From Antedon mediterranea (taxonomy: Eukaryota > Animalia > Echinodermata): a DNA stretch of 64,000 nucleotides. The number at the start of each line of letters is the position of its first letter. Within the stretch, counting starts at the first letter, position 1. The stretch spans positions 17,174,001 to 17,238,000 of the forward strand of contig NC_092674.1 in the NCBI RefSeq assembly GCF_964355755.1, read 5' to 3'. This document shows positions 504-61,974 of this stretch, piece after piece. The notes below the pieces were generated by a model. The model made no database searches. It was not told the origin of the DNA and saw only the letters and a list, made by a program, of their open reading frames with translations. The position numbers and the translations under genes are program-made.

Positions 504-656
504 TGTGTTTTGGCCCTTGCAGAGCATCCCAATGTTCCTTTATTATGTTTTCCTTTTACGTGCATGCTGCAACGATGACTTGCCATTCATATTAAATAAC
601 TTTACAACCAATACTTGTTTCCTTGTTTTTGTTTATCGGGCTCACATGTGTCAAAA
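504..656 (+). repeat. Direct repeat copy 2 (putative B2, element terminus) of left element
   Basis: tgtgttttggccc...cacatgtgtcaaaa, immediately followed by satellite sequence gtctatttatatgaaatg. Confidence 0.9.
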
Positions 657-919
657 GTCTATTTATATGAAATGAATGATCAATCATTGAAAAATAATGC
701 TATGCAACTTTGTTTCTGATTTTAAAAAAGGTCCACTTGTTTAGGCCTGACATTTACAACCCTCAAAATATCTCACTTTCAAAAACAATATTTATTTTCA
801 AATAAAAAAAAAATATCCTAACAGGTTCGAACCCACTACTGGGAGCACTCAAAACTGAGCATTACCCGTTATGCCATAAAGTAGTACACGACAGAACAGT
901 TTGTAATAGTCTATTTATA

Positions 920-1811
920 AGTGTATTACGTAATTCATCATTACGTCATAAAAATCATATTAACCTTGTTAAAACCAAAATGGCCAGTTAGCTAAGACGA
1001 CTGAGCGTCGGTCGGTGGAATAGAGTTACGTCCCCCTTTCCACCACACATCTTGAGAAGGCACTAGCAATGCATCTGGCGATGATGTGGTGGAAACGACC
1101 CCAAGGCTGTGGCAGGGCCTTAGTGCTGAGGCAGGGAGAGCACATTTTTAAATTTTTTTTTGGCTTTCGCTACATGTATTTGATCTCGTAAATTTTATGT
1201 TTAGCGCCCTCAATTTAATGTAAAAAGAAATTAATTTATCTTCGTTACGTGTTTAGAAGAGAATGTATGTCTCATCGTAGTTTGGTATGCCGTTTGTTAT
1301 TATGCAAATGAGTTTTTGCAGGTGTAGTGGGAAAGATGGTATTGTTAGTAATTCGCGGTCAACACACCACACTGTCCCGCCACACTGTTGAATTTTGATT
1401 TTGTTAATCAATGTTGCTACATTGGTAGCGAAATGTCCGATTCATGCAAGATATTGTATTGTAATATGTTATAAATAAACATTTATGGATGGTAGTTGGT
1501 GTGTATGGCCGCACCGTCCCAGAATAAACATGTTTTAAACAGATAGTTTGTCTCCGATTATTTTTGTATTGGGTTAATGGAGAGTGAAATAGATCAAATA
1601 TAGAACATTTGCAAAGATGCCGATTTCCAGACCGATTTCGAAACTTAGACTAATTCCGCCGCCGGGCTAGGCCTTAGGCATATACGAAGTCGAAATTTTA
1701 AAGTAGAAAACTCTACCTAAAATTTTGAATTCGCATCTCGATAGTTGAATTTTTAACAAATATCATAAATATCATAGGTGATTATGTATGGTAATAAGTA
1801 TAAGTATAAGT
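920..1811. other. ~0.9 kb non-satellite insertion of unknown class
   Basis: The satellite stops after ...taatagtctatttata (919) and resumes in partly deleted form at ~1812. The insert ends in an (ATAAGT)3-like tail, and TATAAGTG occurs at both borders (916-923, 1805-1812). Confidence 0.75.
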
Positions 1812-3639
1812 GCAATTCTTTAAAAAGGTCCACTTGGTTAGGCATGACATTTACAAACATAAAAATATCTCACTATCAAAAATAAAATTTATTTTCAATT
1901 AAAAAAAAAAAAGAAAAAAAATACCCGTATAGGTTCGAACACACTGCTGAGAGCACTCAAACCTGAGCATTACCCGTTGCGCCACAAACCAGTAGATGAC
2001 TGAAGAGCTGATAATACTCTATTTATATGAAATAAAAAATAAATCAATGAAAAATAATGCCATGCAACTTTGTTTCTGATTTTAAAAAAGGTCCACTTGT
2101 TTAGGGCTGACATTTACAACTATAACAATATCTCACTTTCAAAAACAATATTTATTTTCAAATAAAAAAAAAGAAAAAAAATATACCTAAAAGTTCGAAC
2201 CCACTATTGAAATCACTCAAACCTGAGCATTACCCGTTACACCCCAAACCAGTAGATGACTGAAGAACTGATAATAGTCTATTTATATGAAATAGATGAT
2301 CAATCAATGAAAAATAATGCCATGCAACTTTGTTTCTGATTTTAAAAAAGATTCACTTGTTTAGGCTTGACAGTTGCAACCCTCAAAATATCTCACTTTC
2401 AAAATCAATATTTATTTTCAATAAAGAAAAAAAAAAGAAAAAAATACCCGTATAGGTTAGAAACCAGCTGCTGAGAGCACTCAAACCTGAGCATTACCCG
2501 TTACGCCACAAACCAGTAGATGACTGAGGAGCTGATAATAGTCTATTTATATGAAATTAATGATCAATCAATGAAAAATAATGCCATGCAACTTTGTTTC
2601 TGATTTTAAAAAAGGTCCACTTGTTTAGGCCTGACATTTACTACCCTCAAAATATCTCACTTTCAAAAACAATATTTATTTTCAATAACAAAAAAAGAAA
2701 GAAATAAAATACCCGTATAGGTTCGAACCCACTGCTGAGAGCACTCAAACCTGAGGATTACCCGTTACGCCACAAACCAGTAGATGACTGAAGAGCTGAT
2801 ATTACTCTATTTATATGAAAAAAATAATAAATCAATGAAAAATAATGCCATGCAACTTTGTTTCTGATTTTAAAAAAGGTCCACTTGTTTAGGCCTGATA
2901 TTTACAACCCTCAAAATATCTCACTTTCAAAAACAATATTTATTTTCAATAAAAAAAATATATATATATTCCTAGAGGTTCGAACCCACTACTGAGAGAA
3001 CTCAAACCTGAGCATTACCGGTTACGCCACAACCCAGTATATGAATGGAGAGCTAATAATAGTCTATTTATATGAAATGAATGATCAATCAATGAAAAAT
3101 AATGTTATGCAACTTTGTTTCTGATTTTAAAAAAGGTCCATTTTTTAGGCCTGACATTTACAACCCTCAAAATATATCATTTTCAAAAACAATATTTATT
3201 TTCAATAAAAAAAAAAAAAGAAAAAAATACCCGTATAGGTTCGAACACACTGCTGAGAGCACTCAAACCTGAGCATTACCCGTTACGCCACAAACCAGTA
3301 GATGACTGAAGAGCTGATAATACTTTATTTATATGAAATAAATAATAAATCAATGAAAAATAATGCCATGCAACTTTGTTTCTGATTTTAAAAAAGGTCC
3401 ACTTGTTTAGGGCTGATATTTAAAACCCTTAAAATATCTCACTTTCAAAAACAATATTTATTTTCAATTTAAAAAAAAAAAAAAAATCCCTAGAGGTTCG
3501 AACCCACTACTGAGAGCACTCAAACCTGAGTATTACCCGTTACGCCACAAACCAGTAGATGACTGAGGAGCTGATAATAGTCTATTTATATGAAATTAAT
3601 GATCAATCAATGAAAAATAATGCCATGCAACTTTGTTTC

Positions 3640-6600
3640 TGATTTTAAAAAAGATCCATTTGTTAAGGCCTGACATTTACAACCCTCAAAATATCTCATT
3701 TTCAAAAAAAAATATTTATTTTCAATAAGAAAAAAAAAAGCAATGTCCCTAGAGGTTGGAACCCACTACCGAGAGCACTCAAACCTGGGTATTACCCGCT
3801 ACGCCACAAACCAGTAGATGACTGGAGAGCTGATAATATGAAATTAATGATCAATCAATGAAAAATAATGCCAAGCAACTTTGTTTCTGATTTTAAAAAA
3901 GGTCCACTTGTTTAGGCCTGACATTTACAACCCTCAAAATATCTCACTTTCAAAAACAATATTTATTTTCAATAACAAAAAAAGAAAGAAATAAAATTCC
4001 CGTATAGGTTCGAACCCACTGCTGAGAGCACTCAAACCTGAGCATTACCCGTTACGCCACAAACCAGTAGATAACTGAAGAGCTGATATTACTCTATTTA
4101 TATGAAATAAATAATAAATCAATGAAAAATAATGCCATGCAACTTTGTTTCTGATTTTAAAAAAGGTCCACTTGTTTAGGCCTGATATTTACAACCCTCA
4201 AAATATCTCACTTTCAAAAACAATATTTATTTTCAATTAAAAAAAAAAAAAAAATATTCCTAGAGGTTCGAACCCACTACTGAGAGAACTCAAACATGAG
4301 CATTACCGGTTACGCCACACCCCAGTATATGAATGGAGAGCTAATAATAGTCTATTTATATGAAATGAATGATCAATCAATGAAAAATAATGTTATGCAA
4401 CTTTGTTTCTGATTTTAAAAAAGGTCCACTTGTTTAGGCCTGACATTTACAACCCTTAAAATATCTCACTTTCAAAAACAATATTTATTTTCAATTAAAA
4501 AAAAAAAAGAAAAAAAATAACCGTATATGTTCGAACCCACTGCTGAGAGCACTCAAACCTGAGCATTACCCGTTACGCCACAAACCAGTAGATAACTGAA
4601 GAGCTGATAATAGTCTATTTATATGAAATGAATGATCAATCAATGAAAAATAATGTCATGCAACTTTGTTTCTGATTTTAAAAAAGGTCCACTTGTTTAG
4701 GCCTGACATTTACAACCCTTAAAATATCTCATTTTCAAAAAAAATATTTATTTTCAATAAGAAAAAAAAGAAATATCCCTAGAGGTTCGAACCCACTACT
4801 GAGAGCACTCAGACCTGAGTATTACACGTTACGCCACAAACCAGTAGATGCCTGAGGAGCTGATAATAGTCTATTTATATGAAATTAATGATCAATCAAT
4901 GAAAAATAATGCCATGCAACTTTGTTTCTGATTTTAAAAAAGGTCCACTTGTTTAGGCCTGACATTTACAACCCTTAAAATATCTCATTTTCAAAAAAAA
5001 ATATTTATTTTCAATAAGAAAAAAAAAGCAATATACCTAGAAGTTGGAACCCGCTACTGAGAGCACTCAAACCTGGGTATTACCCGTTACGCCACAAACC
5101 AGTAGATGACTGAAGAGCTGATAATATGAAATTAATGATCAATCAATGAAAAATAATGCCATGCAACTTTGTTTCTGATTTTAAAAAAGATCCATTTGTT
5201 AAGGCCTGACATTTACAACCCTCAAAATATCTCATTTTCAAAAAAAAATATTTATTTTCAATAAGAAAAAAAAAAGCAATGTCCCTAGAGGTTGGAACCC
5301 ACTACCGAGAGCACTCAAACCTGGGTATTACCCGCTACGCCACAAACCAGTAGATGACTGGAGAGCTGATAATATGAAATTAATGATCAATCAATGAAAA
5401 ATAATGCCAAGCAACTTTGTTTCTGATTTTAAAAAAGGTCCACTTGTTTAGGCCTGACATTTACAACCCTCAAAATATCTCACTTTCAAAAACAATATTT
5501 ATTTTCAATAACAAAAAAAGAAAGAAATAAAATTCCCGTATAGGTTCGAACCCACTGCTGAGAGCACTCAAACCTGAGCATTACCCGTTACGCCACAAAC
5601 CAGTAGATAACTGAAGAGCTGATATTACTCTATTTATATGAAATAAATAATAAATCAATGAAAAATAATGCCATGCAACTTTGTTTCTGATTTTAAAAAA
5701 GGTCCACTTGTTTAGGCCTGATATTTACAACCCTCAAAATATCTCACTTTCAAAAACAATATTTATTTTCAATTAAAAAAAAAAAAAAAATATTCCTAGA
5801 GGTTCGAACCCACTACTGAGAGAACTCAAACATGAGCATTACCGGTTACGCCACACCCCAGTATATGAATGGAGAGCTAATAATAGTCTATTTATATGAA
5901 ATGAATGATCAATCAATGAAAAATAATGTTATGCAACTTTGTTTCTGATTTTAAAAAAGGTCCACTTGTTTAGGCCTGACATTTACAACCCTTAAAATAT
6001 CTCACTTTCAAAAACAATATTTATTTTCAATTAAAAAAAAAAAAGAAAAAAAATAACCGTATATGTTCGAACCCACTGCTGAGAGCACTCAAACCTGAGC
6101 ATTACCCGTTACGCCACAAACCAGTAGATAACTGAAGAGCTGATAATAGTCTATTTATATGAAATGAATGATCAATCAATGAAAAATAATGTCATGCAAC
6201 TTTGTTTCTGATTTTAAAAAAGGTCCACTTGTTTAGGCCTGACATTTACAACCCTTAAAATATCTCATTTTCAAAAAAAATATTTATTTTCAATAAGAAA
6301 AAAAAGAAATATCCCTAGAGGTTCGAACCCACTACTGAGAGCACTCAGACCTGAGTATTACACGTTACGCCACAAACCAGTAGATGCCTGAGGAGCTGAT
6401 AATAGTCTATTTATATGAAATTAATGATCAATCAATGAAAAATAATGCCATGCAACTTTGTTTCTGATTTTAAAAAAGGTCCACTTGTTTAGGCCTGACA
6501 TTTACAACCCTTAAAATATCTCATTTTCAAAAAAAAATATTTATTTTCAATAAGAAAAAAAAAGCAATATACCTAGAAGTTGGAACCCGCTACTGAGAGC

Positions 6601-6710
6601 ACTCAAACCTGGGTATTACCCGTTACGCCACAAACCAGTAGATGACTGAAGAGCTGATAATATGAAATTAATGATCAATCAATGAAAAATAATGCCATGC
6701 AACTTTGTTT
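3640..6710. repeat. Higher-order repeat: 6-monomer block, 2 copies, period ~1536 bp
   Basis: The diagnostic variant gtccctagaggttggaacccactaccg occurs at 3745 and 5281, and the following monomer variants recur in the same order. Boundaries are approximate. Confidence 0.85.
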
Positions 6711-9700
6711 CTAATTTTAAAAAAGGTCCACTTGTTTAGGCCTGACATTTACAACCCTCAAAATAACTCACTTTTAAAAACAATATTTATTTTCAATTAA
6801 AAAAAAAAAGAAAAAATTTCCTAGAGGTCCGAACCCACTACTGCGAGAACTCAAACCTGAGCATTACCCGTTACGCCACAAACCAGTAGATGACTGAAGA
6901 GCTGATAATACTCTATTTATATGAAATAAATAATAAATCAATGAAAAATAATGCCATGCAACTTTGTTTCTGATTTTTAAAAAGGTGCACTTGTTTAAGC
7001 CTGATATTTACAACCCTCAAAATATCTCACTTTCAAAAACAATATTTATTTTCAATTAAAAAAAAAAACAAAAAAAAACGTGGAGGTTCGAACCCTCTAC
7101 TGAGTGCACTCAAACCTGAGCATTACCCGTTACGCCACAAACCAGTAGATAACTGAAGAGCTGATAATAGTCTATTTATATGAAATGAATGATCAATCAA
7201 TGAAAAATAATGTCATGCAACTTTGTTTCTGATTTTAAAAAAGGTCCACTTGTTTAGGCCTGACATTTACAACCCTTAAAATATCTCACTTTCAAAAACA
7301 ATATTTATTTTCAATTTAAAAAAAAAAGAAAAAATATATCCCTAGAAGTTCGAACCCACTATTGAAATCACTCAAGCCTGAGCATTACCCGTTACGCCGC
7401 AAATCAGTAGATGACTGAAGAGCTGATAATAGTCTATTTATATGAAATAGATAATCAATCAATGAAAAATAATACCATGTAAATTTGTTTCTGATTTTTA
7501 AAAAGGTCCACTTGTTTAGGCCTGAATGATCAATCAATGAAAAATAATGTTATGCAACTTTGTTTCTTATTTTAAGAAAGGTCCACTTGTTTAGGCCTGA
7601 CATTTACAACTATAACAATATCTCACTTTCAAAAACAAAATTTATTTTCAAATAAAAAAAAAAAATAGCAATATCCCTAGAAGTTGGAACCCGCTACTGA
7701 GAGCACTCTAACCCGGGTATTACCCGTTACGCCACAAAGCAGTAGATGACTGAAGAGCTGATAATATGAAATTAATGATCAATCAATGAAAAAAAATGCC
7801 ATGCAACTTTGTTTCTGATTTAAAAAAAGGTCCACTTCTTTAGGCATGACATTTACAACCCTCAAAATATCTCATTTTCAAACAAAATATTTATTTTCAA
7901 TAAAAAAAAAAACTTAAAAAAATTACCGTATATGTTCGAACCCACTGCTGAGAGCACTCAAACCTGAGCATTACCCGTTACGCCACAAACCAGTAGATAA
8001 CTGAAGAGCTGATAATAGTCTATTTATATGAAATGAATGATCAATCAATGAAAAATAATGCCATGCAACTTTGTTTCTGATTGAAAAAAAGATCTGTTTG
8101 TTTAGGCCTGACATTTACAACCCTCAAAATATCTCATTTTCAAAAAAAAATTTTCTTTTCAATAAGAAAAAAAAAGCAATATCCGTAGAGGTTGGAACCC
8201 GCTACTGAGAGCACTCAAACCTGGGTATTACCCGTTACGACACAAACCAGTAGATGACTGAAGAGCTGATAATATGAAATGAATGATCAATCAATGAAAA
8301 ATAATGTTATGCAACCTTGTTTCTGATTTTAAAAAAGGTCCACTTGTTTAGGCCTGACATTTACAACTATAACAATATCTCACTTTCAAAAACAATATTT
8401 ATTTTCAAATAAAAAAAAAAGAAAATAAATATCCCTAGAAATTCGAACCCACTATTGAAATCACAAGAACCTGAGCATTACCCGTTACGCTACAAACCAG
8501 TAGATGACTGAAGAGCTGATATTACTCTATTTATATGAAATAAATAATAAATCAATGAAAAATAATGCCATGCAACTTTGTTTCTGATTTTAAAAGAGGT
8601 CCACTTGTTTAGGCCTGACATTTACAACCCTCAAAATAACTCACTTTCAAAAACAATATTTATTTTCAATTAAAAAAAAAAAGAAAAAATTTCCCAGAGG
8701 TTCGAACCCACTACTGCGAGAACTCAAACCTGAGCATTACCCGTTACGCCACAAACCAGTAGATGACTGAAGAGCTGATAATACTTTATTTATATGAAAT
8801 AAATAATAAATCAATGAAAAATAATGCCATGCAACTTTGTTTCTGATTTTTAAAAAGGTGCACTTGTTTAAGCCTGATATTTACAACCCTCAAAATATCT
8901 CACTTTCAAAAACAATATTTATTTTCAATTAAAAACAAAAAACAAAAAAAAAACGTAGAGGTTCGAACCCACTACTTAGTGCACTCAAACCTGAGTATTA
9001 CCCGTTACGACACAAACCAGTAGATAATCGAGGAGCTGATAATAGTCTATTTATATGAAATTAATGATCAATCAATGAAAAATAATGCTATGCAACTTTG
9101 TTTCTGATTTTTAAAAAGGTCCACTTGTTAAGGCCTGACATTTACAACTATAACAATATCTCACTTTCAAAAAAAATATTTATTTTCAAATAAAAAAAAA
9201 AAAGCAATATCCCTAAAAGTAGGAACCCGCTACTGAGAGCACTCAAACCTGGGTATTACCCGTTACGCCACAAACCAGTAGATGACTGAAGAGCTGATAA
9301 TATGAAATTAATGATCAATCAATGAAAAATAATGCCATGCAACTTTGTTTCTGATTTTAAAAAAGGTCCACTTCTTTAGACCTGACATTTACAACCCTCA
9401 AAATATCACATTTTCAAACAAAATATTTATTTTCAATTAAAAAAAAAAGAAAAAAGAAATATCCCTAGAAATTCGAACCCACTATTGAAATCACACGAAC
9501 CTGAGCATTACCCGTTACGCTACAAACCAGTAGATGACTGAAGAGCTGATATTACTCTATTTATATGAAATAAATAATAAATCAATGAAAAATAATGCCA
9601 TGCAACTTTGTTTCTGATTTTAAAAAAGGTCCACTTGTTTAGGCCTGATATTTACAACTCTCAAAATATCTCACTTTCAAAAACAATATTTATTTTCAAT

Positions 9701-10689
9701 TTAAAAAAAAAAAATATTCCTAGAGGTTCGAACCCACTACTGAGAGAACTCAAACCTGAGCATTACCGGTTACGCCACAACCCAGTATATGAATGGAGAG
9801 CTAATAATAGTCTATTTATATGAGATGAATGATCAATCAATGAAAAATAATGTTATGCAACTTTGTTTCTGATTTTAAAAAAGGTCCACTTTTTTAGGCC
9901 TGACATTTACAACCCTCAAAATATATCATTTTCAAAAACAATATTTATTTTCAATAAAAAAAAAAAAAGAAAAAAAAATACCCGTATAGGTTCGAACACA
10001 CTGCTGAGAGCACTCAAACCTGAGCATTACCCGTTACGCCACAAACCAGTAGATGACTGAGGAGCTGATAATATTCTATTTATATGAAATTAATGATCAA
10101 TCCATGAAAAATAATGCCATGCAACTTTGTTTCTGATTTTAAAAAAGGTCCACTTGTTTAGGCCTGACATTTACTACACTCAAAATATCACTTTTTCAAA
10201 AAAAATATTTATTTTCAATTTAAAAAAAAAAAAAATAAAAATATCCCTAGAGGTTCGTCCCACTACTCAGAGCACTCAAACCTGAGCATTACCCGTTACG
10301 CCACAAACCAGTAGATGACTGAAGAGCTGATAATAGTCTATTTATATGAAATGAATGATCAATCAATGAAAAATAATGTCATGCAACTTTGTTTCTGATT
10401 TTAAAAAAGGTCCACTTGTTTAGGCCTGACATTTACAACTATAACAATATCTCACTTTCAAAAACAATATTTATTTTCAAATAAAAAAAAAAGAAAAAAA
10501 ATATCCCTAGAAGTTCAAACCCACTATTGAAATCACTCAAACCTGAGCATTACCCTTACGCCGCAAACCAGTAGACGACTGAAGAGCTGATAATAGTCTA
10601 TTTATATGAAATAGATGATCAATCAATGAAAAATAATGCCATGCAACTTTGTTTCTGATTTTAAAAAAGGTCCACTTGTTTAGGCCTGA

Positions 10690-13080
10690 CATTTACAACC
10701 CTTAAAATATCTCACTTTCAAAAACAATATTTATTTTCAATTAAAAAAAAAAAAGAAAAAAAATAACTGTATATGTTCGAACCCACTGCTGAGAGCACTC
10801 AAACCTGAGCATTACCCGTTACGCCACAAACCAGTAGATAACTGAAGAGCTGATAATAGTCTATTTATATGAAATGAATGATCAATCAATGAAAAATAAT
10901 GCCATGCAACTTTGTTTCTGATTGAAAAAAGGATCTGTTTGTTTAGGCCTGACATTTACAACCCTCAAAATATCTCATTTTCAAAAAAAAATTTTCTTTT
11001 CAATAAGAAAAAAAAAGCAATATCCGTAGAGGTTGGAACCCGCTACTTAGAGCACTCAAACCTGGGTATTACCCGTTACGACACAAACCAGTAGATGACT
11101 GAACAGCTGATAATATGAAATGAATGATCAATCAACAATATTTATTTTCAAATAAAAAAAAAAGACAATAAATATCCCTAGAAATTCGAACCCACTATTG
11201 AAATCATTCGAACCTGAGCATTACCCGTTACGCCGCAAACCAGTAGATGACTGACGAGCTTATAATAGTCTATTTATATTATGAGATAGATGATAAATCA
11301 ATGAAAAATAATGCAATGCAACTTTGTTTCTGATTTTAAAAAAGGTCCACTTGTTTAAGCCTGACATTTACAACCCTCAAAATATCTCACTTTCAAAAAC
11401 AATATTTATTTTCAATTAAAAAAAAAATTAAAAAAATACCCGTGTAGGTTCGAACCCACTGCTGAGAGCACTCAAACCTGACCGTTACCCGTTACGCCAC
11501 AAACCAGTAGATGACTGAAGAGCTGATAATAGTCTATTTATATGAAATGAATGATCAATCAATGAAAAATAATGCCATGAAACTTTGTTTCTGATTGAAA
11601 AAAAGATCTGTTTGTTTAGGCCTGACATTTACAACCCTCAAAATATCTTATTTAAAAAGAAATATTTATCTTCAATTAAAAAAAAAATAAATAAAAATAA
11701 CCTTAGAGGTGCGAACCCACTACTGCGAGCACTCAAACTTGAGCATTACTCGCTACGCCACAAACCGGCAGATGACTGAAGAGCTAATAATACTCTATTT
11801 ATATGAAATGAATAATAAATCAATGAAAAATAATGCCATGCAACTTTGTTTCTGATTGAAAAAAAGATCCGCTTGTTTAGGCCTGACATTTACAACCCTT
11901 AAAATATCTCACTTTCAAAAACAATATTTATTTTCAATTAAAAAAATAAAAAAAATAACTGTATATGTTCGAACCCACTGCTGAGAGCACTCAAACCTGA
12001 GCATTACCCGTTACGCCACAAACCAGTAGATAACTGAAGAGCTGATAATAGTCTATTTATATGAAATGAATGATCAATCAATGAAAAATAATGCCATGCA
12101 ACTTTGTTTCTGATTGAAAAAAAGATCTGTTTGTTTAGGCCTGACATTTACAACCCTCAAAATATCTCATTTTGAAAAAAAAAATTTCTTTTCAATAAGA
12201 AAAAAAAAAGCAATATCCGTAGAGGTTGGAACCCGCTACTGAGAGCACTCAAACCTGGGTATTACCCGTTACGACACAAACCAGTAGATGACTGAAGAGC
12301 TGATAATATGAAATGAATGATATATCAACAATATTTATTTTCAAATAAAAAAAAAAGAAAATAAATATCCCTAGAAATTCGAACCCACTATTGAAATCAT
12401 TCGAACCTGAGCATTACCCGTTACGCCGCAAACCAGTAGATGACTGACGAGCTTATAATAGTCTATTTATATTATGAGATAGATGATAAATCAATGAAAA
12501 ATAATGCAATGCAACTTTGTTTCTGATTTTAAAAAAGGTCCACTTGTTTAGGCCTGACATTTACAACCCTCAAAATATCTCACTTTCAAAAACAATATTT
12601 ATTTTCAATTAAAAAAAAAAATAAAAAAAATACCCGTGTAGGTTCGAACCCACTGCTGAGAGCACTCAAACCTGACCGTTACCCGTTACGCCACAAACCA
12701 GTAGATGACTGAAGAGCTGATAATAGTCTATTTATATGAAATGAATGATCAATCAATGAAAAATAATGCCATGAAACCTTGTTTCTGATTGAAAAAAAGA
12801 TCTGTTTGTTTAGGCCTGACATTTACAACCCTCAAAATATCTTATTTAAAAAAAAATATTTATCTTCAATTAAAAAAAAAATAAATAAAAATAACCTTAG
12901 AGGTGCGAACCCACTACTGCGAGCACTCAAACTTGAGCATTACTCGCTACGCCACAAACCAGCAGATGACTGAAGAGCTAATAATACTCTATTTATATGA
13001 AATGAATAATAAATCAATGAAAAATAATGCCATGCAACTTTGTTTCTGATTGAAAAAAAGATCCGTTTGTTTAGGCCTGA
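10690..13080. repeat. Tandem duplication with period ~1194 bp including an internally deleted monomer
   Basis: Identical pseudo-ORFs at 11585 and 12779. A shared ~85 bp deletion (…atcaacaatattt…) lies at ~11130 and ~12325, and both copies share the tatattatgagataga variant. Boundaries are approximate. Confidence 0.85.
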
Positions 13081-13465
13081 CATTTACAACCCTCAAAATA
13101 TCTCATTAAAAAAAAAATATTTATCTTCAATTAAAAAAAAAAAAGAAAAGAGAAATATCCCTAGAGGTTCGAACCCACTACTGAGAGCACTCAGACCTGA
13201 GTATTACACGTTACGCCACAAACCAGTAGATTACTGAGGACCTGATAATAGTCTATTTATATGAAATTAATGATCAATCAATGAAAAATAATGTTATGCA
13301 ACTTTGTTTCTGATTTTTAAAAAGGTCCACTTGTTTAGGCCTGACATTTACAATCTCACTTTAAAAAACAATATTTATTTTCAATTTAAAAAATAAAAAA
13401 ATAAAAATAACCTTAGAGTTGCGAACCCACTACTGCGAGCACTCAAACTTGAGCATTACCCGCTA

Positions 13466-42645: not shown

Positions 42646-42717
42646 GGTTTAGCCCGGGCTCGAACCAGGTACCTTCTGCGTATTGAGCAAACGTGATAAC
42701 CACTACGCCAAGAAGCC
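42646..42717 (-). pseudogene. Degenerate tRNA-Val-derived copy in second HINE
   Basis: Same sequence as 35558-35629. Confidence 0.8.
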
Positions 42718-50211: not shown

Positions 50212-50323
50212 AAAAAATACCCGTGTAGGTTCGAACCCACTGCTGAGAGCACTCAAACCTGAGCATTACCCGTTACGCCACAAACCAGTAGATGACTGAA
50301 GAGCTGATAATAGTCTATTTATA
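50212..50323 (-). promoter_or_regulatory. Representative tRNA-like Pol III cassette of the satellite monomer (present, with variants, in most monomers)
   Basis: On the minus strand: TATAAATA (50323-50316), A box TGGCGTAACGG (50280-50270), D-arm GCGT-AACGGGTA-ATGC, B box GGTTCGAACC (50237-50228), and a T6 run (50217-50212). A-to-B spacing equals that of a tRNA with a 4-nt variable loop. Confidence 0.7.
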
Positions 50324-53300
50324 TGAAATGAATGATCAATCAATGAAAAATAATTTCATGCAACTTGGTTTCTGATTGAAAAAAAGATCCGTTTGTTTAG
50401 GCCTGACATTTACAACCCTCAAAATATCTCATTTTTAAAAAAAAACTTTTATTTTCAATAAGAAAAAAAAAACAATATCCCTAGAGGTTGGAACCCGCTA
50501 CTGAAAGCACTCAAACCTGAGTATTAATCGTTACGCCACAAACTAGTAGATGACTGAAGAGCTGATAATATGAAATTAATGATCAATCAATGAAAAATAA
50601 TGCCATGCAACTTTGTTTCTGATTTTAAAAAAGGTCCACTTCTTTAGGCCTGACATTTACAACCCTCAAAATATCTCATTTTCAAAAAAAATATTTATTT
50701 TCAATTAAAAAAAAAAGAAAAAAGAAATATCCCTAGAGGTTCGAACCCACTACTGACAGCAGTCAGACCTGAGTATTACCCGTTTCGCCACAAACCAGTA
50801 GATAATTGAGGAGCTGATAATAGTCTATTTATATGAAATTAATGATCAATCAATGAAAAATAATGCCATGCAACTTTGTTTCTGATTTTAAAAAAGGTCC
50901 ACTTGTTTAGGCCTGACATTTACAATCTCACTTTCAAAAACAATATTTATTTTCAATTTAAAAAAAAATAAATAAAAATATCCTTAGAGGAGCGAATCCA
51001 CTACTGCGAGCACTCAAACTTGAGCATTACCCGCTACGCCACAAACCAGTAGATGTCGACTGAAGAGCTAATAATACTCTATTTATATGAAATTAATAAT
51101 AAATCAATGAAAAATAATGCCATGCAACTTTGTTTCTGATTTTAAAAAAGGTCCACTTGTTTAGGCCTGGCATTTACAACCCTCAAAATATCTCACTTTC
51201 AAAAACAATATTTATTTTCAATTAAAAAAAAAAGAAAAAAATATCCCAAGAGGTTCAAAGCCACTACTGAGAGAACTCAAACCTGAGCATTACTGATTAC
51301 GCCACAACCCAGTAGATGAGTGAAGAGCTGATAATAGTCTATTTATAAGAAATGAATGATCAATCAATGAAAAATAATGTTATGCAACTTTGTTTCTGAT
51401 TTAAAAAAAGTTCCACTTGTTTAGGCCTGACATTTACGACTATAACAATATCTCACTTTCAAAAACAATATTTATTTTCAAATAAAAAAAAAAGAAAAAA
51501 AATATCCCTAGAAGTTCGAACCCACTATTGAAATCACTCAAACCTGAGCATTACCCGTTACGCCGCAAACCAGTAGATGACTGAAGAGCTGATAATAGTC
51601 TATTTATATGAAATAGATGATCAATCAATGAAAAATAATGCCATGCAACTTTGTTTCTGATTTTAAAAAAGGTCCACTTGTTTAGGCCTGACATTTACAA
51701 CCCTCAAAATATCTCACTTTAAAAAACAATAGTTATTTTCAATTAAAAAAAAAAGAAAAAAAATACCCGTGTAGGTTCGAACCCACTGCTGAGAGCACTC
51801 AAACATGAGCATTACCCGTTACGCCACAAACCAGTAGATGACTGAAGAGCTGATAATATGAAATTAATGATCACTCAATGAAAAATAATGCCATGCAAGT
51901 TTGTTTCTGATTTTAAAAAAAGGTCCACTTGTTTAGGCCTGACATTTACAACCCTCAAAATATCTCATTTTCAAAAAAAAATTATTATTTTCAATTTAAA
52001 AAAAAAGAAAAAAGAAATATCCCTAGAGGTTCGAATCCACTACTGAGAGCACCCAGACCTGAGTATTACCCGTTACGCCACATACCAGTAGATGTCTGAG
52101 GAGCTGATAATAGTCTATTTATATGAAATGAATGATCAATCAATGTAAAATGATGTTGTACAACTTTGTTTCTGATTTTAAAAAAGGTCTACTTGGTTAG
52201 GCATGACATTTACAACCATAAAAATATCTCACTTTCAAAAACAATATTTATTTTCAATTAAAAAAAAATAAAAAAAATACCCGTATAGGTTCAAACCCAC
52301 TGCTGAGAGCACTCAAATCTGAGCATTACCCGTTACGCCACAAACCAGCAGATGACTGAGGAGCTGATAATAGTCTATTTATATGAAATTAATGATCAAT
52401 CAATGAAAAATAATGCCATGCAACTTTGTTTCTGATTTTAAAAAAGGTCCACTTGTTTAGGCCTGACATTTACAACCCTCAAAATATCTCACTTTCCAAA
52501 ACCATATTTATTTTCAATTTAAAAAAAAAAAGAAAAAAAATATCCCTAGAGGTTCGACCCACTACTCAGAGCACTCAAACCTGAGCATTACCCGTTACGC
52601 CACAAACCAGTAGATGACTGAAGAGCTGATAATAGTCTATTTATATGAAATGAATGATCAATCAATGAAAAATAATGCCATGCAACTTTGTTTCTGATTT
52701 TAAAAAAGGTCCACTTGTTTAGGCCTGGCATTTACAACCCTCAAAATATCTCACTTTCAAAAACAATATTTACTTTCAATTAAAAAAAAAAAAGAAAAAA
52801 AATATCCCAAGAGGTTCGAACCTACTACTGAGAGAACTCAAACCTGAGCATTACCGGTTACGCAATAAACCAGTAGATGACTGAAGAGATCATAATAGTC
52901 TATTTATATGAAATGAAAGATCAATCAATGTCAAATGATTTTATGCAACTTTGTTTCTGATTTTTAAAAAGGTCCACTTGGTAAGGCATGACATTTACAA
53001 CCATAAAAATATCTCACTATCAAAAACAATATTTATTTTCAATTAAAAAAAAAAATAAAAAAATATTCCTAGAGGTTCGAACCCACTACTGAGAGAACTC
53101 AAACCTGAGCATTACCAGTTACGCCACAACCCAGTAGATGAATGAAGAGCTAATAATAGTCTATTTATATGAAATGAATGATCAATCAATGAAAAATAAT
53201 GTTATGAAACTTTGTTTCTGATTTTAAAAAAGGTCCACTTGTTTAGGCATGACATTTACAACCCTCAAAATATATCATTTTCAAAAACAATATTTATTTT

Positions 53301-56300
53301 CAATAAAAAAAAAAAAATACCCGTATAGGTTCGAACCACTGCTGAGAGCACTCAAACCTGAGCATTACCCGTTACGCCACAAACCAGTAGATGACTGAAG
53401 AGCTGATAATAGTCTATTTATAAGAAATGAATGACCAATCAATGAAAAATAATGCCATGCAACTTTTTTTCTGATTGAAAAAAACATCCGTTTGTTTAGG
53501 CCTGACATTTAAAACCCTCAAAATATCTCATTTTCAAAAAAAAAAATTATTTTCAATAAGAAAAAAAAAGCAATATCCCTAGAGGTTAGAACCCGCTACT
53601 GAGAGCACTCAAACCTGGGTATTAGCCGTTACGCCACAAACCAGTAGATGACTGAAGAGCTGATAATATGAAATTAATGATCAATCAATGAAAAATAATG
53701 CCATGCAACTTTGTTTCTGATTTTAAAAAAGGTCCACTTCTTTAGGCCTGACATTTACAACCCTCAAAATATCTCATTTTCAAACAAAATATTTATTTTC
53801 AATAAAAAAAAAAAGAAAAAAGAAATATCCCTAGAGGTTCGAACCCACTACTGAGAGCACTCAGACCTGAGTATTACCCGTTTCGCCACAAACCAGTAGA
53901 TGACTGAGGAGCTGATAATAGTCTATTTATATAAAATTAATGATCAATCAATGAAAAATAATGCCATGCAACTTTGTTTCTGATTTTAAAAAAGGTCCAC
54001 TTGTTTAGGCCTGACATTTACAACCCTCAAAATATCTCACTTTCAAAAACAATATTTATTTTCAATTTAAAAAAAAAAGAAAAAAAAACACCCGTGTAGG
54101 TTGGAACCCTCTGCTGAGAGCACTCAAACCTGAGCATTACCCATTAAGCCACAAACCAGTAGATGACTGAAGAGCTGATAATATGAAATGAATTATCAAT
54201 CAATGAAAAATAATGTTATGCAACTTTGTTTCTGATTTTTAAAAAGGTCCACTTGTTTAGGCCTGACATTTACAACTATAACAATATCTCACTTTCAAAA
54301 ACAATATTTATTTAAAAAAAAAAAAAAAAAAGCAATATCCCTAAAAGTTGGAACCCGCTACTGAGAGCACTCAAACCTGGGTATTACCCGTTACGCCACA
54401 AACCAGTAGATGACTGAAGAGCTGATAATATGAAATTAATGATCAATCAATGAAAAATAATGCCATGCAACTTTGTTTCTGATTTTAAAAAAGGTCCACT
54501 TCTTTAGACCTGACATTTACAACCCTCAAAATATCTCATTTTCAAACAAAATATTTATTTTCAATTAAAAAAAAAGAAAAAAGAAATATCCCTAGAGGTT
54601 CGAACCCGCTACTGAGAGCACTCAAACCTGGGTATTACCCGTTACGCCTCAAACCAGTAGATGACTGAAGAGCTGATAATATGAAGTGAATGATCAATCA
54701 ATGAAAAATAATGTTATGCAACTTTGTTTCTGATTTTAAAAAAGGTCCACTTGATTAGGCCTGACATTTACAACTATAACAATATCTCACTTTCAAAAAC
54801 AATATTTATTTTCAAATAAAAAAAAAAATAGCAATATCCCTAGAAGTTGGAACCCGCTACTGAGAGCACTCTAACCTGGGTATTACCCGTTACGCCACAA
54901 ACCAGTAGATGACTGAAGAGCTGATAATATGAAATTAATGATCAATCAATGAAAAATAATGCCATGCAACTTTGTTTCTGATTTAAAAAAAGGTCCACTT
55001 CTTTAGGCATGACATTTACAACCCTCAAAATATCTCATTTTCAAAAGAAATATTTATTTTCAATAAGAAAAAAAAAAGCAATATCCCTAGAGGTTGGAAC
55101 CCGCTACTGAGAGCACTCAAACCTGGGTATTACCCGTTACGCCACAAACCAGTAGATGACTGGCGAGCTGATAATATGAAATTAATGATCAATCAATGAA
55201 AAATAATGCCATGCAACTTTGTTTCTGATTTTAAAAAAGGTCCACTTCTTTAGGCCTGACATTTACAACCCTCAAAATATCTCACTTTCAAAAACAATTT
55301 TTATTTTCAATTTAAAAAAAAAAAAAAAAAATCCCTAGAGGTTCGAACCCACTACTGAGAGCACTCAAACCTGAGTATTACGCGTTACGCCACAAACCAG
55401 TAGATGACTGAAGAGCTGATAATAGTCTATTTATATGAAATTAATTATCAATCAATGAAAAATAATGCCATGCAACTTTGTTTCTGATTTTAAAAAAGAT
55501 CCATTTGTTAAGGCCTGACATTTACCACCCTCAAAATATCTCATTTTCAAAAGAAATATTTATTTTCAATAAGAAAAAAAAAGCAATATCCCTAGAGGTT
55601 GGAACCCGCTACTAAGAGATCTCAAACCTGGGTATTACCCGTTACGCCACAAACCAGTAGATGACTGGAGAGCTGATAATAGTCTATTTATATGAAATTA
55701 ATTATCAATCAATGAAAAATAATGCCATGCAACTTTGTTTCTGATTTTAAAAAAAGGTCCACTTCTTTAGGCCTGACAATTACAACCCTCAAAATATCTC
55801 ATTTTCAAAAACAATATTTATTTTCAATTTAAAAAAAATAATAATAAAAATATCTCTAGAGGTTCGACCCACTACTCAGAGCACTCAAACCAGAGCATTA
55901 CCCGTTACGCCACAAACCAGTAGATGACTGAAGAGCTGATAATAGTCTATTTATATGAAATGAATGATCAATCAATGAAAAATAATGCCATGCAACTTTG
56001 TTTCTGATTTTAAAAAAGGTCCACTTCTTTAGGCCTGACATTTACAACCCTCAAAATATCTCACTTTCAAAAACAATATTTATTTTTAATTTAAAAAAAA
56101 AAAAAAAAATCCCTAGAGGTTCGAACCCACTACTGAGAGCACTCAAACCTGAGTATTACGCGTTACGCCACAAACCAGTAGATGACTGAAGAGCTGATAA
56201 TAGTCTATTTATATGAAATTAATTATCAATCAATGAAAAATAATGCCATGCAACTTTGTTTCTGATTTTAAAAAAGATCCATTTGTTAAGGCCTGACATT

Positions 56301-59300
56301 TACCACCCTCAAAATATCTCATTTTCAAAAGAAATATTTATTTTCAATAAGAAAAAAAAAGCAATATCCCTAGAGGTTGGAACCCGCTACTAAGAGATCT
56401 CAAACCTGGGTATTACCCGTTACGCCACAAACCAGTAGATGACTGGAGAGCTGATAATAGTCTATTTATATGAAATTAATTATCAATCAATGAAAAATAA
56501 TGCCATGCAACTTTGTTTCTGATTTTAAAAAAAGGTCCACTTCTTTAGGCCTGACAATTACAACCCTCAAAATATCTCATTTTCAAAAACAATATTTATT
56601 TTCTATTTAAAAAAAATAATAATAAAAATATCTCTAGAGGTTCGACCCACTACTCAGAGCACTCAAACCAGAGCATTACCCGTTACGCCACAAACCAGTA
56701 GATGACTGAAGAGCTGATAATAGTCTATTTATATGAAATGAATGATCAATCAATGAAAAATAATGCCATGCAACTTTGTTTCTGATTTTAAAAAAAGGTC
56801 CACTTGTTTAGGCCTGGCATTTACAACCCTCAAAATATCTCACTTTCAAAAACAATATTTACTTTCAATTAAAAAAAAAAAAGAAAAAAAATATCCCAAG
56901 AGGTTCGAACCTACTACTGAGAGAACTCAAACCTGAGCATTACCGGTTACGCAATAAACCAGTAGATGACTGAAGAGATCATAATAGTCTATTTATATGA
57001 AATGAAAGATCAATCAATGTCAAATGATTTTATGCAACTTTGTTTCTGATTTTTAAAAAGGTCCACTTGGTAAGGCATGACATTTACAACCATAAAAATA
57101 TCTCACTATCAAAAACAATATTTATTTTCAATTAAAAAAAAAATAAAAAAATATTCCTAGAGGTTCGAACCCACTACTGAGAGAACTCAAACCTGAGCAT
57201 TACCGGTTACGCCACAACCCAGTAGATGAATGAAGAGCTAATAATAGTCTATTTATATGAAATGAATGATCAATCAATGAAAAATAATGTTATGAAACTT
57301 TGTTTCTGATTTTAAAAAAGGTCCACTTGTTTAGGCATGACATTTACAACCCTCAAAATATATCATTTTCAAAAACAATATTTATTTTCAATAAAAAAAA
57401 AAAAAATACCCGTATAGGTTCGAACCACTGCTGAGAGCACTCAAACCTGAGCATTACCCGTTACGCCACAAACCAGTAGATGACTGAAGAGCTGATAATA
57501 GTCTATTTATAAGAAATGAATGATCAATCAATGAAAAATAATGCCATGCAACTTTTTTTCTGATTGAAAAAAACATCCGTTTGTTTAGGCCTGACATTTA
57601 AAACCCTCAAAATACCTCATTTTCAAAAAAAAAAATTATTTTCAATAAGAAAAAAAAAGCAATATCCCTAGAGGTTGGAACCCGCTACTGAGAGCACTCA
57701 AACCTGGATATTACCCGTTACGCCACAAACCAGTAGATGACTGAAGAGCTGATAATATGAAATTAATGATCAATCAATGAAAAATAATGCCATGCAACTT
57801 TGTTTCTGATTTTAAAAAAGGTCCACTTCTTTAGGCCTGACATTTACAACCCTCAAAATATCTCATTTTCAACAAAATATTTTCTTTTCAATAAGAAAAA
57901 AAAAGCAATATCCCTAGAAGTTGGAACCCGCTATGGAGAGCACTCAAACCTGGGTATTACCCGTTACGCCACAAACCAGTAGATGACTGAAGAGCTGATA
58001 ATATGAAATGAATGATCAATCAATGAAAAATAATGTTATGCAACTTTGTTTCTGATTTTTAAAAAGGTGCACTTGTTTAGGCCTGACATTTACAACTATA
58101 ACAATATCTCACTTTCAAAAACAATATTTATTTAAAAAAAAAAAAAAAAAAGCAATATCCCTAAAAGTTGGAACCCGCTACTGAGAGCACTCAAACCTGG
58201 GTATTACCCGTTACGCCACAAACCAGTAGATGACTGAAGTGCTGATAATATGAAATTAATGATCAATCAATGAAAAATAATGCCATACAACTTTGTTTCT
58301 GATTTTAAAAAAGGTCCACTTCTTTAGACCTGACATTTACAACTTTCAAAATATCTCATTTTCAAACAAAATATTTATTTTCAATTAAAAAAAAAAGAAA
58401 AAAGAAATATCCCTAGAGGTTCGAACCCGCTACTAAGAGCACTCAAACCTGGGTATTACCCGTTACGCCACAAACCAGTAGATGACTGAAGAGCTGATAA
58501 TATGAAATGAATGATCAATCAATGAAAAATAATGTTATGCAACTTTGTTTCTGATTTTAAAAAAGGTCCACTTGATTAGGCCTGACATTTACAACTATAA
58601 CAATATCTCACTTTCAAAAACAATATTTATTTTTAAATAAAAAAAAAAATAGCAATATCCCTAGAAGTTGGAACCCGCTACTGAGAGCACTCTAACCTGG
58701 GTATTACCCGTTACGCCACAAACCAGTAGATGACTGAAGATCTGATAATATGAAATTAATGATCAATCAATGAAAAATAATGCCATGCAACTTTGTTTCT
58801 GATTTAAAAAAAGGTCCACTTCTTTAGGCATGACATTTACAACCCTCAAAATATCTCATTTTCAAAAAAAATATTTATTTTCAATAAAAAAAAAAGAAAA
58901 AAGAAATATCCCTAGAGGTTCGAACCCACTACTGAGAGCGCTCAGACCTGAGTATTACCCGTTTCGCCACAAACCAGTAGATGACTGAGGAGCTGATAAT
59001 AGTCTATTTATATAAAATTAATGATCAATCAATGAAAAATAATGCCATGCAACTTTGTTTCTGATTTTAAAAAAGGTCCACTTGTTTAGGCCTGACATTT
59101 ACAACCCTCAAAATATCTCACTTTCAAAAACAATATTTATTTTCAATTTAAAAAAAAAATAAATAAAAATAACGTTAGAGGTGCGAACCCACTACTGCGA
59201 GCACTCAAACTTGAGCATTACCCGCTACGCCACAAACCAGTAGATGACTGAAGAGCTAATAATACTCTATTTATATGAAATAAATAATAAATCAATGAAA

Positions 59301-61582
59301 AATAATGCCATGCAACTTTGTTTCTGATTTTAAAAAAGGTCCACTTGTTTTGGCCTGGCATTTACAACCCTCAAAATATCTTACTTTCAAAAACAATATT
59401 TATTTCCAATAAAAAAAAAAAAAGAATAAAAATACCCGTACAGGATCGAACCCACTGCTGAGAGCACTCAAACCTGAGCATTACCCGTTACGCCACAAAC
59501 CAGGAGATGACTGAAGAGCTGAAAATAGTCTATTTATATGAAATGAATGATCAATCAATGAAAAATAAGGCCATGCAACTTTGTTTCTGATTGAAAAAAA
59601 GATCCGTTTGTTTAGGCCTGACATTTACAAGTAGAACAATATCTCACTTTCAAAAACAATATTTATTTTCAAAAAAAAAAGCAAAAAAAATAAGCAATAT
59701 CCCTAGAAGTTGGAACCCGCTACTGAGAGCACTCAAACCTGGGTATTACCCGTTACGCCACAAACCAGTAGATGACTGAAGAGCTGATAATATGAAATTA
59801 ATGATCAACCAATGAAAAATAATGCCATGCAACTTTGTTTCTGATTTTAAAAAAAGGTCCACTTCTTTAGGCCTGACATTTACAACCCTCAAAATTTCTC
59901 ACTTCCAAAAACAATATTTATTTTCAATTAAAAAAAAAAGAAAAAAATATTCCTAGAGGTTCGAACTCACTACTGAGAGAACTCAAACCTGAGCATTACC
60001 GGTTACGCCACAACCCAGTAGATGAGTGAAGAGCTGATAATAGTCTATTTAAATGAAATAAATGATTAATCAATGAAAAATAATGTTATGCAACTTTGTT
60101 TCTGATTTTAAAAAAGGTCCACTTGTTTAGGCCTGACATTTACAACTATAACAATATCTCACTTTCAAAAACAGTATTTATTTTCAAATAAAAAAAAAAA
60201 GATAAAAAATATCCCTAGAAGTTCGAACCCACTATAGAAATCACTCAAACCTGAGCATTACCCGTTACGCCGCAAACCAGTAGATAACTCAAGAGCTGAT
60301 AATAGTCTATTTATATGAAATGAATGATCAATCAATGAAAAAATAATGCCATGCAACTTTGTTTCTGATTGAAAAAAGATCCATTTGTTTAGGCCTGACA
60401 TTTACAACCCTCAAAATATCTCATTTTCAAAAAAAAATTTTCTTTTCAATAAGAAAAAAAAAAGAAAAATCCCTAGAGGTTGGAACCCGCTACTGAGAGC
60501 ACTCAAACCTGGGTATTACCCGTTACGCCACAAACCAGTAGCTGACTGAAGAGCTGATAATATGAAATTAATGATCAATCAATGAAAAATAATGCCATGC
60601 AACTTTGTTTCTGATTTTAAAAAAGGTCCACTTGTTTAGGCCTGACATTTACAACCCTCAAAATATCTCACCTTCAAAAACAATATTTATTTTCAATTAA
60701 AAAAAAAAAGAAAAAAATATTCCTAGAGGCTCGAACTCACTACTGAGAGAACTCAAACCTGAGCATTACCGGTTACGCCACAACCCAGTAGGTGAGTGAA
60801 GAGCTGATAATAGTCTATTTAAATGAAATAAATGATTAATCAATGAAAAATAATGTTATGCAACTTTGTTTCTGATTTTAAAAAAGGTCCACTTGTTTAG
60901 GCCTGACATTTACAACTATACCAATATCTCACTTTCAAAAACAGTATTTATTTTCAAATAAAAAAAAAGAAAAAAAATATCCCTAGAAGTTCGAACCCAC
61001 TATTGAAATCACTCAAACCTGAGCATTACCCGTTACGCCCCAAACCAGTAGATAACTCAAGAGCTGATAATAGTCTATTTATATGAAATGAATGATCAAT
61101 CAATGAAAAAATAATGCCATGCAACTTTGTTTCTGATTGAAAAAAGATCCATTTGTTTAGGCCTGACATTTACAACCCTCAAAATATCTCATTTTCAAAA
61201 AAAAAATTTCTTTTCAATAAGAAAAAAAAAGCAAAATCCCTAGAGGTTGGAACCCGCTACTGAGAGCACTCAAACCTGGGTATTACCCGTTACGCCACAA
61301 ACCAGTAGCTGACTGAAGAGCTGATAATATGAAATGAATGATCAATCAATGAAAAATAATGCCATGCAACTTTGTTTCTGATTTTAAAAAAGGTCCACTT
61401 GTTTAGGCCTGACATTTACAACCCTCAAAATATCTCACTTTCAAAAACAATATTTATTTTCAATTAAAAAAAAAAGAAAAAAAATAACCGTATATGTTCG
61501 AACACACTGCTGAGAGCACTCAAACCTGAGCATTACCCGTTACACCACAAACCAGTTGATAACTGAAAAGCTGATAATAGTC

Positions 61583-61974
61583 TTTGTGTCAACAGAGTCC
61601 AGGACAAAACAAAGGAAACAAAACACCGAAATGGATGGAAAATGTCAATTATTATTAAATGACGAAATAACTAAATATATAATGTAAAACTACTGTAATA
61701 ATAACAAAGGGGGCAGCCACCATTGCATTATGTAGGTTATGGTATTGTTATTACATCTAATACCTTACATTACGTGAAGGCTGCCCCTGTTGAATATATA
61801 GTATTAACAATTAGCATTCCCCATTGTTATATAGAAAACGCATCATTAATATACTTGTAAAATAACCGATAATATAATATAAAAGTTATAGGTCTATACA
61901 GAATCGTAACTAACATATCGTAGAATTAATATACATAATCAAATTGAGATATAATTATTATGGGCACACACGCC
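61583..61974 (-). repeat. 392 bp direct repeat (B2, element terminus)
   Basis: tttgtgtcaacagagtccagg...gggcacacacgcc, near-identical to 62338-62729. Confidence 0.95.

What the first reader, a model, noticed from the sequence alone, without database searches (positions are those of the whole stretch)
640..61600. Both array ends are capped by convergent YR retrotransposons joined at mirror-symmetric positions of one palindrome: apparent site-specific targeting of the satellite
Seen: the left junction (+) is ...GTGTCAAAA|GTCTATT (656/657), and the right junction read on the minus strand is ...GACACAAA|GACTATT (61583/61582). The monomer site is the interrupted palindrome AATAG-T-CTATT, so both elements join at AATA|G(T/A)CTATT, the same position on opposite strands. 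The two elements have different B repeats (~150 versus 392 bp), so they look like independent insertions of related families. The site lies ~25-28 bp upstream of the tRNA-like start and overlaps the TATA element. Established: tyrosine recombinases act on dyad-symmetric sites without target duplication, and Ty3 of yeast is targeted upstream of tRNA genes by TFIIIB. Inference: these Ngaro-like elements use this satellite as an att-like landing pad, by sequence recognition or by tethering to Pol III factors. This rests on only two junctions.
Basis: partly seen in the sequence, partly recalled or inferred. Interest (0 to 1): 0.85.

Follow-up and report, generated by a model that had tools for sequence, protein, structure and literature searches.

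The report
Ngaro retrotransposons flanking tRNA-like satellite
Two different jumping genes do join a tRNA-like tandem repeat at mirror-image points of one short palindrome, but other copies of both families are flanked by unrelated, non-satellite DNA, so the palindrome is likely at most a favoured spot for elements that need only a short A-rich motif, not a dedicated landing pad.

Summary
The junctions are as described (656|657 and 61582|61583) and are exact mirror positions of AATAG-T-CTATT. Both repeats end split-direct-repeat (Ngaro-type) elements in a probable crinoid. The right copy has a frameshifted RT-RH and lacks the recombinase that follows RH in 77 of 80 relatives; no recombinase lies in the window. 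'Capping' is also doubtful: the left element sits in a solitary unit about 900 bp outside the array, and the last right monomer is an ordinary internal type. Relatives' 21 flanks show no Pol III unit nearby. The exact mirror match is still unlikely under a short-motif null (0.03-0.4%), so a local hotspot is not excluded. Both elements' B|A junctions fold into integron-attC-like double hairpins (z -5.1, -5.8; 3 of 3 relatives with a mapped junction), with the crossover at the end of the 5' arm. This scan already reported that hairpin on three other genomes; I took the lead from there and tested it here.

The parts
180..331 (+). Left element, B1 repeat
   Evidence: 151-bp direct repeat, 96% to 506-656
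315..379 (+). Left B1|A2 junction, predicted attC-like double hairpin; crossover position 331|332 at the end of the 5' outer arm
   Evidence: ssDNA fold -19.6 kcal/mol, z -5.09, 0 of 200 shuffles as good; only hit of the hairpin scan in 1-660
332..452 (+). Left element, A2 repeat (3' limit approximate)
   Evidence: contig depth falls about fourfold at 453; 3 contigs join other flanks to 330
453..505 (+). Left element, single-copy spacer between A2 and B2, opening with a C-rich motif also seen in the right element and in relatives
506..656 (+). Left element, B2 repeat (3' end of element)
   Evidence: 4 contigs carry this end into unrelated flanks
657..920 (.). Solitary, diverged satellite unit that the left element joins; tRNA-like part 813-883 on minus; second copy of the dyad at 905-915
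   Evidence: (Rfam tRNA 19.5 bits, E 1.3, below gathering score)
921..1818 (.). Non-satellite DNA between the solitary unit and the array
1819..61582 (.). 263-bp tRNA-like satellite array, about 230 copies; A-box-like, B-box-like and T-run on the minus strand
   Evidence: mean column identity 0.92
61576..61582 (.). Retained part (AATAGTC) of the dyad at the right junction
61583..61974 (-). Right element, B2 repeat (3' end of element)
   Evidence: 392 bp, 4 mismatches to B1; 6 contigs carry this end into other flanks
61975..62337 (-). Right element, A2 repeat plus spacer (boundary near 62070, approximate)
62286..62359 (-). Right B1|A2 junction, predicted attC-like double hairpin; crossover position 62338|62337 at the end of the 5' outer arm
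   Evidence: ssDNA fold -18.2 kcal/mol, z -5.80 on the element strand, -3.60 on the other; only hit of the scan in 61583-64000
62338..62729 (-). Right element, B1 repeat
62924..63448 (-). RNase H region; followed after about 195 bp by B1, with no YR or methyltransferase ORF between
   Evidence: (RVT_3 E 0.002, below cut-off)
63381..64000 (-). Reverse transcriptase (runs off the window), out of frame with RNase H near 63440
   Evidence: (best other hit 77% identity, Antedon mediterranea)

Best explanation
Two unrelated Ngaro-type retrotransposon families with dispersed copies each left one copy at this satellite, and they likely integrate with relaxed specificity, by a tyrosine recombinase predicted to act on the folded B|A junction and on any genomic site with a short A-rich motif, the palindrome being at most a good site that works in both orientations. 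Shown: the split repeats, the junction positions, other copies in unrelated flanks, the lack of YR in the right copy, and a B|A junction with an outer stem, a 4-5 by 1-3 nt internal loop and an inner stem, with the element end exactly at the inner edge of the outer 5' arm (..AA|). Inferred: that the junction is recombined as folded single-stranded DNA (as integron attC sites are), that the right copy moved with a YR supplied in trans or lost it afterwards, and that the very high copy number of the satellite plus a dyad of hotspot quality brought both insertions to one site. The right element most likely interrupts the array rather than ending it.
For: Heterogeneous long flanks of other copies: left 3' ends 4 contigs, left 5' ends 3 contigs, right 3' ends 6 contigs, at or near the agreement of unrelated DNA. 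No deep contig crosses the left B|satellite junction (depth 0, 0, 2 and 0 in four runs against B depths of about 470-6700 in the three runs of the holder sample). In relatives, 10 of 10 mapped 3' ends end in AA and run into unrelated flanks. Fold z-scores -5.09 and -5.80 for the two window junctions and -2.57, -6.79, -3.10 for the 3 relatives whose junction was mapped independently; the satellite site and both product junctions do not fold (z +1.6, +0.9, -0.9). The outer arms are 30-35 bp apart, too far for a classical 6-8-bp-spacer duplex core (spacer length recalled). DIRS-1 cDNA is single-stranded (PMC7192593, passages); IntI inserts attC cassettes at a 3-bp GWT motif genome-wide with strong hotspots (10.1101/2022.09.11.507474, passages). 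Last right monomer is an internal type.
Against: Exact mirror placement is expected in only 0.03-0.4% of random pairs even with an A-rich motif, so pure chance is a weak account. Only 13 contig ends were visible, as 30-letter consensus rows from one sample, with 191 and 41 rows hidden; long loose ends favour unique flanks, and short junction contigs into repeats can be filtered out (the window's own left junction is absent from two runs). The window's two 3' flanks begin with G, while the consensus of the other flanks begins with T. The hairpin scan is loose (73 hits on the element strand, 54 on the other, 25 in shuffles), and any inverted repeat folds on both strands.
Confidence: 0.6

Rival explanations
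1. The dyad is a genuine sequence- or chromatin-defined hotspot: a sizeable minority of copies of several Ngaro families use this exact site in satellite monomers, in either orientation, while the rest are dispersed.
For: Exact mirror match has a null probability of 0.03-0.4%; the dyad is one of the two longest in the monomer; the same position is the edge of an 11-bp deletion in 62 of 226 units and of another non-satellite join seen in contigs of two organisms. Some Starship YR elements use palindromic targets in both orientations (PMC11162782, passages).
Against: No deep contig spans the left B|satellite junction; no joint of the right B end to another satellite position or strand is listed; the site is the least conserved part of the monomer (0.76 against 0.92); two events only.
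Confidence: 0.22
2. Pol III tethering: the elements are guided by TFIIIB or similar factors to about 28 bp upstream of tRNA-like units, so flanks differ in sequence but lie next to tRNA genes or SINEs.
For: Right junction is 28 bp upstream of the tRNA-like start, inside the range of DGLT-A (13-33 bp) and Tca8 (6-30 bp) (PMC5911963, Table 1 passage). Thirty letters of flank consensus cannot exclude it. A-box column identity is 0.95.
Against: 0 of 21 relatives' flanks carry an A+B box pair within 200 bp (the detector found only 1 of the 2 window controls); Rfam found 1 tRNA in 17 loci, 4.9 kb from the element end; ARAGORN none in 99 loci. The unit scores below the Rfam tRNA threshold, B-box conservation is average (0.91), and transcription is untested. 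The left junction has no tRNA-like unit upstream in view.
Confidence: 0.07
3. Coincidence at a natural unit boundary: the AGTCTATTTA stretch is where the parental repeat unit begins and ends, so the left element merely inserted at or beside the edge of a solitary unit (perhaps not into the palindrome at all), and the right one hit the dyad by chance.
For: The solitary unit is bounded by two copies of this stretch (653-667, 905-919); contigs of two organisms join a non-satellite sequence ending GGCA to GTCTATTT; the left pre-insertion sequence is not visible; within-5-bp coincidence has 3-5% probability.
Against: Those contigs carry a shorter unit variant than the one at 657, so they are not this locus; the match is exact, not just near.
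Confidence: 0.1
4. Strict att-like targeting: both families recognise the palindrome and use the satellite as their landing pad.
For: The two junctions themselves.
Against: 13 contig ends of the two families in non-satellite flanks; the dyad does not resemble either element's arms.
Confidence: 0.01

Closest known systems
Ngaro retrotransposons (order DIRS)
   Same: B1-A2-B2 split direct repeats at the 3' end, RT-RH without methyltransferase, relatives with YR directly after RH (77 of 80), no target duplication. Definition from 10.1101/2021.08.05.455354 and PMC13465315 (passages). Cafeteria Ngaro types show a regional preference (virophage DNA, PMC8547959, passages).
   Different: The right copy has no YR after RH and a frameshift; the left copy shows no ORF in the window; a short single-copy spacer lies between A2 and B2; A1 is outside the window.
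DIRS1-like elements
   Same: YR integration through a very short homology at a circular junction, with no target duplication (PMC3266345, PMC7192593, passages); single-stranded cDNA shown for DIRS-1.
   Different: No inverted terminal repeats, ICR or methyltransferase here; shared letters with the target are 0-2, not a fixed trinucleotide.
Integron attC x attG recombination
   Same: Folded hairpin donor site and a 3-bp genomic motif with hotspots (10.1101/2022.09.11.507474, passages; PMC11641012, abstract start in listing).
   Different: Analogy of architecture only: no integron integrase, no test of strand specificity or extrahelical bases; box nomenclature recalled.
Pol III-targeting retrotransposons (Ty3, DGLT-A, Tca8, TRE5)
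   Same: Right junction 28 bp upstream of a tRNA-like start (PMC5911963, passages).
   Different: Those use DDE integrases or APE endonucleases; no Pol III neighbour at 21 relatives' ends; targeting not shown here.
Starship YR elements that target 5S rDNA or palindromes
   Same: Eukaryotic YR elements with specialist and generalist families, some inserting both ways at palindromic sites (PMC11162782, passages).
   Different: DNA transposons of fungi with 6-16-bp matches to the target; here the match is 1 bp and copies are dispersed.

Membership tests
Ngaro | 3' split direct repeats B1-A2-B2 | tested here: met
   both elements; B|A join also in a contig of a second organism
Ngaro | A1 repeat at the 5' end | tested here: inconclusive
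   outside the window; contigs join other flanks to the A start for the left family (3 contigs) and for a relative of the right family (1 contig)
Ngaro | RT-RH without methyltransferase domain | tested here: met
   right element: RH stop is followed by about 195 bp and B1; left element has no ORF in view
Ngaro | YR ORF downstream of RH | tested here: not met
   absent in this copy (HMM of 47 relatives' YRs, best E 0.43); present in 77 of 80 relatives. Filed as a YR-less derivative of the lineage, not as an autonomous member
Ngaro | RT groups with named Ngaro references in a tree | not tested
   no named reference sequence was in hand
DIRS1-like | Inverted terminal repeats, ICR and methyltransferase | tested here: not met
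   direct repeats, no MT ORF
Site-specific (att-like) satellite-targeting element | Most copies share one target sequence | tested here: not met
   13 contig ends in unrelated non-satellite flanks
Site-specific (att-like) satellite-targeting element | Other half-site at the 5' end of the same copies | not testable with these tools
   5' ends outside the window; no genome held
Pol III-targeting element | Fixed distance to Pol III start across copies | tested here: inconclusive
   negative in 21 relatives' flanks with an imperfect detector; not measurable for the two window families
attC-like folded recombination site | Two stems separated by an unpaired spacer, crossover at the edge of the outer stem | tested here: met
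   5 of 5 independently mapped junctions; prediction only
attC-like folded recombination site | Strand-specific recombination of the folded single strand | not testable with these tools
   needs biochemistry; element strand folds better in 4 of 5 pairs, equal in L061

The most novel reading that the evidence does not exclude
Ngaro elements integrate as folded single-stranded DNA through an attC-like B|A hairpin, and the TATA-region palindrome of this tRNA-derived satellite is a true two-way hotspot for that reaction, used by unrelated families: a eukaryotic counterpart of integron attG hotspots that funnels a share of insertions into a harmless repeat.
Probability: 0.22. Interest if true: 0.68.

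Novelty: new member of a known kind. Interest (0 to 1): 0.3.

Why it matters
Target choice by eukaryotic tyrosine-recombinase retrotransposons is almost untested (PMC7192593 says YR specificity had not been investigated experimentally). A dedicated satellite or Pol III landing pad would have been new for this order, but the data here contradict the strict form. What remains useful is a concrete donor (the folded B|A junction with a mapped crossover) and a candidate good target (AATAG-T-CTATT) for an in vitro or cell assay. The hairpin idea is not new to this scan.

Tried and rejected
No whole genome was held, so no census of copies. IMG/VR scans with the RH protein, the RT-RH alignment and a 24-base B-end pattern gave nothing. 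An HMM of 47 relatives' YRs and tblastn of relatives' ORFs found no YR or other ORF remnant in window 1-1900 or 61500-64000 beyond the known RT-RH; a weak YR-like stretch on the minus strand at 1-130 (E about 1) ends in stops and was rejected. An unguided scan for the best 76-nt hairpin downstream of YR hit the junction in only a few of the loci because many other hairpins exist and most contigs collapse the repeats; folds of L050, L037, L017 and L014 (z -5 to -7.7) were chosen from a hairpin scan and are not counted as evidence. Zero depth across the left junction in three runs is not taken as proof of absence. The idea that the whole array is one YR-integrated unit bounded by GTC was considered and dropped: the flanks are element ends, not a plain target, and 900 bp of other DNA interrupts it. 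Paper searches for attC+hairpin+YR+retrotransposon+DIRS and for Ngaro+retrotransposon+hairpin+integron returned 0 papers; searches listed no paper on satellite- or tRNA-targeting Ngaro/DIRS by title or abstract start. The library lacks most subscription papers (the original Ngaro descriptions among them), and I read no supplements, so absence from print is not established.

Full report
Anatomy. The window is almost wholly a 263-bp tandem repeat, about 230 copies from 1819 to 61582, with an A-box-like motif, a B-box-like motif and a T-run on the minus strand. It is tRNA-like only weakly: ARAGORN calls no monomer and Rfam scores one unit at 19.5 bits, E 1.3, in 600-4000. No genome is held. The best named relative of the RT is from Antedon mediterranea at 77% identity, the next at 63% or less, so the host is probably a crinoid (inference).

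Junctions. Left B copies are 180-331 and 506-656 (96%), right B copies 62729-62338 and 61974-61583 (4 mismatches in 392), and the families share only a 23-bp C-rich motif. The left element keeps GTCTATT on its right, the right element keeps AATAGTC on its left: mirror positions of AATAG-T-CTATT, which is intact in 133 of 226 units and removed by an 11-bp deletion in 62. Two parts of the title fail. The left element joins a solitary unit cut off from the array by about 900 bp of other DNA; this unit is the most diverged of 223, whereas the last unit at the right end is an ordinary internal type, which suggests the right element interrupts the array. And there is no YR in the window ends: the right copy has RT and RH out of frame and then B1 after about 195 bp, while 77 of 80 related loci with enough sequence carry YR directly after RH. 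The right copy is a YR-less derivative of an Ngaro-type lineage. The left one is assigned by its repeats, spacer motif and junction fold only.

Six public runs hold part of the right element, four of them from one sample; all are contigs. Laid on 61330-62365, run X5 shows 6 contigs that match B from 61583 and continue into other DNA (median 236 letters, agreement 0.57), and run X1 (another organism) one contig with a non-satellite flank at the A start (191 rows hidden). Laid on 310-676, runs X5 and X6 show 4 contigs leaving B at 656 (median 255, agreement 0.56) and X3 shows 3 contigs entering A at 330 (0.60) (41 rows hidden). Unrelated AT-rich DNA gives 0.58-0.59, 0.55-0.56 and 0.49-0.51 for 3, 4 and 6 sequences. 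None of these consensus flanks is satellite. Depth across the left B|satellite junction is 0, 0, 2 and 0, against hundreds to thousands on B in the three runs of the holder sample. Limits: one sample, consensus rows only, and a bias towards unique flanks.

Relatives. Among 99 related loci, comparison of near-identical copies gave 10 3' ends and 11 candidate 5' ends in 7 families (four of the 5' ends rest on divergence points alone). All 10 3' ends finish in AA, as both window elements do, and flanks differ within families. No A+B box pair lies within 200 bp of any of the 21 (the detector found 1 of 2 window controls). Rfam found one tRNA in 17 of these loci, 4.9 kb from the element end, and ARAGORN none in 99.

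How unlikely is the mirror match? On the monomer consensus, two opposite-strand insertions fall within 5 bp in 3-5% of draws and at exact mirror positions of a dyad in 0.03% (no preference) to 0.4% (WWWA| preference). The pair was picked after the fact from a very large scan, but this is not negligible, so I keep a hotspot reading at about 0.2. The same position is also the edge of the common deletion, of the solitary unit, and of another join to non-satellite DNA seen in runs X3 and X1, so it may simply be the natural boundary of the unit.

Mechanism. An earlier finding of this scan on another genome (e1-8147475; also e1-9809039 and e1-9806535) proposed that the Ngaro B|A junction folds like an integron attC site. 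Tested here: the left junction folds at z -5.09 and the right at -5.80, each with an outer stem, a small asymmetric internal loop and an inner stem, and each element ends exactly at the inner edge of the 5' outer arm. A pattern scan finds this shape only at the junction in each element. The three relatives whose junction was mapped from flanks or repeats also fold (L003 -2.57, L053 -6.79, L061 -3.10), with different arm sequences. The satellite site does not fold (z +1.6). The scan itself is loose (73, 54 and 25 hits for element strand, other strand and shuffles). With single-stranded cDNA shown for DIRS-1 (PMC7192593) and attC cassettes inserting at a 3-bp motif with hotspots (10.1101/2022.09.11.507474), the simplest model is folded donor plus short A-rich duplex target. 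All mechanistic steps are inferred.

Literature seen. Passages only: PMC8547959, PMC3266345, PMC5911963, 10.1101/2021.08.05.455354 (44), PMC13465315, PMC7192593, 10.1101/2022.09.11.507474 (56), PMC11162782. Listing only: PMC11641012. No supplements were read. Two searches joining Ngaro or DIRS with hairpin and integron or attC terms returned no paper, in a library that lacks most subscription journals.

Verdict. Observation partly confirmed; strict targeting contradicted; Pol III tethering unsupported; a modest chance of a real two-way hotspot remains. New members of a known kind, interest 0.3.

Noticed in passing
window 35200-35891 and 42288-42979: 692-bp insert, two copies 691/692 identical and 7088 bp apart (copied with the array), in a TT/AA run, with short subterminal inverted repeats and hairpins and two tRNA-like units, one called tRNA-Val(AAC) by ARAGORN. 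Looks like a non-autonomous Helentron-type element (label recalled, untested).
   Followed up: partly
window 13466-14071: About 600-bp insert inside the tRNA-like part of a monomer, with a T-run at one end and a duplication of about 15 bp of the monomer on both sides, as for a non-LTR retroposon. Shows that the array takes insertions at other positions too.
   Followed up: partly
window 921-1100: Non-satellite DNA beside the solitary unit has CRE-like and YY1-like motifs (recalled consensus) and a 13-15-bp inverted repeat around 1037-1095; it may be a Pol II promoter or 5' end facing away from the tRNA-like unit. Rfam found nothing there.
   Followed up: no
satellite monomer, dyad position: 62 of 226 units lack 11 bp starting at the same AATA|G point, between short ATA repeats; column identity of the site is 0.76 against 0.92 overall.
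   Followed up: partly
window 310-634 and 61330-61583, run X1: A second organism holds the left element family (0-3 differences in 240 letters) and the satellite, so both predate or cross a species boundary.
   Followed up: no
L081-L099: 19 contigs of animal-type Ngaro-like retrotransposons sit in bacterial MAGs of GTDB (Sedimenticola, Ca. Thiodiazotropha, Escarpia symbiont, Metamycoplasmataceae), most likely host contamination.
   Followed up: no
L050:6100-6700: An SGNH-hydrolase-like ORF (motifs recognised by eye) appears to lie upstream of gag in this relative, not after YR as described for amphibian Ngaro; the contig may be collapsed through repeats.
   Followed up: no
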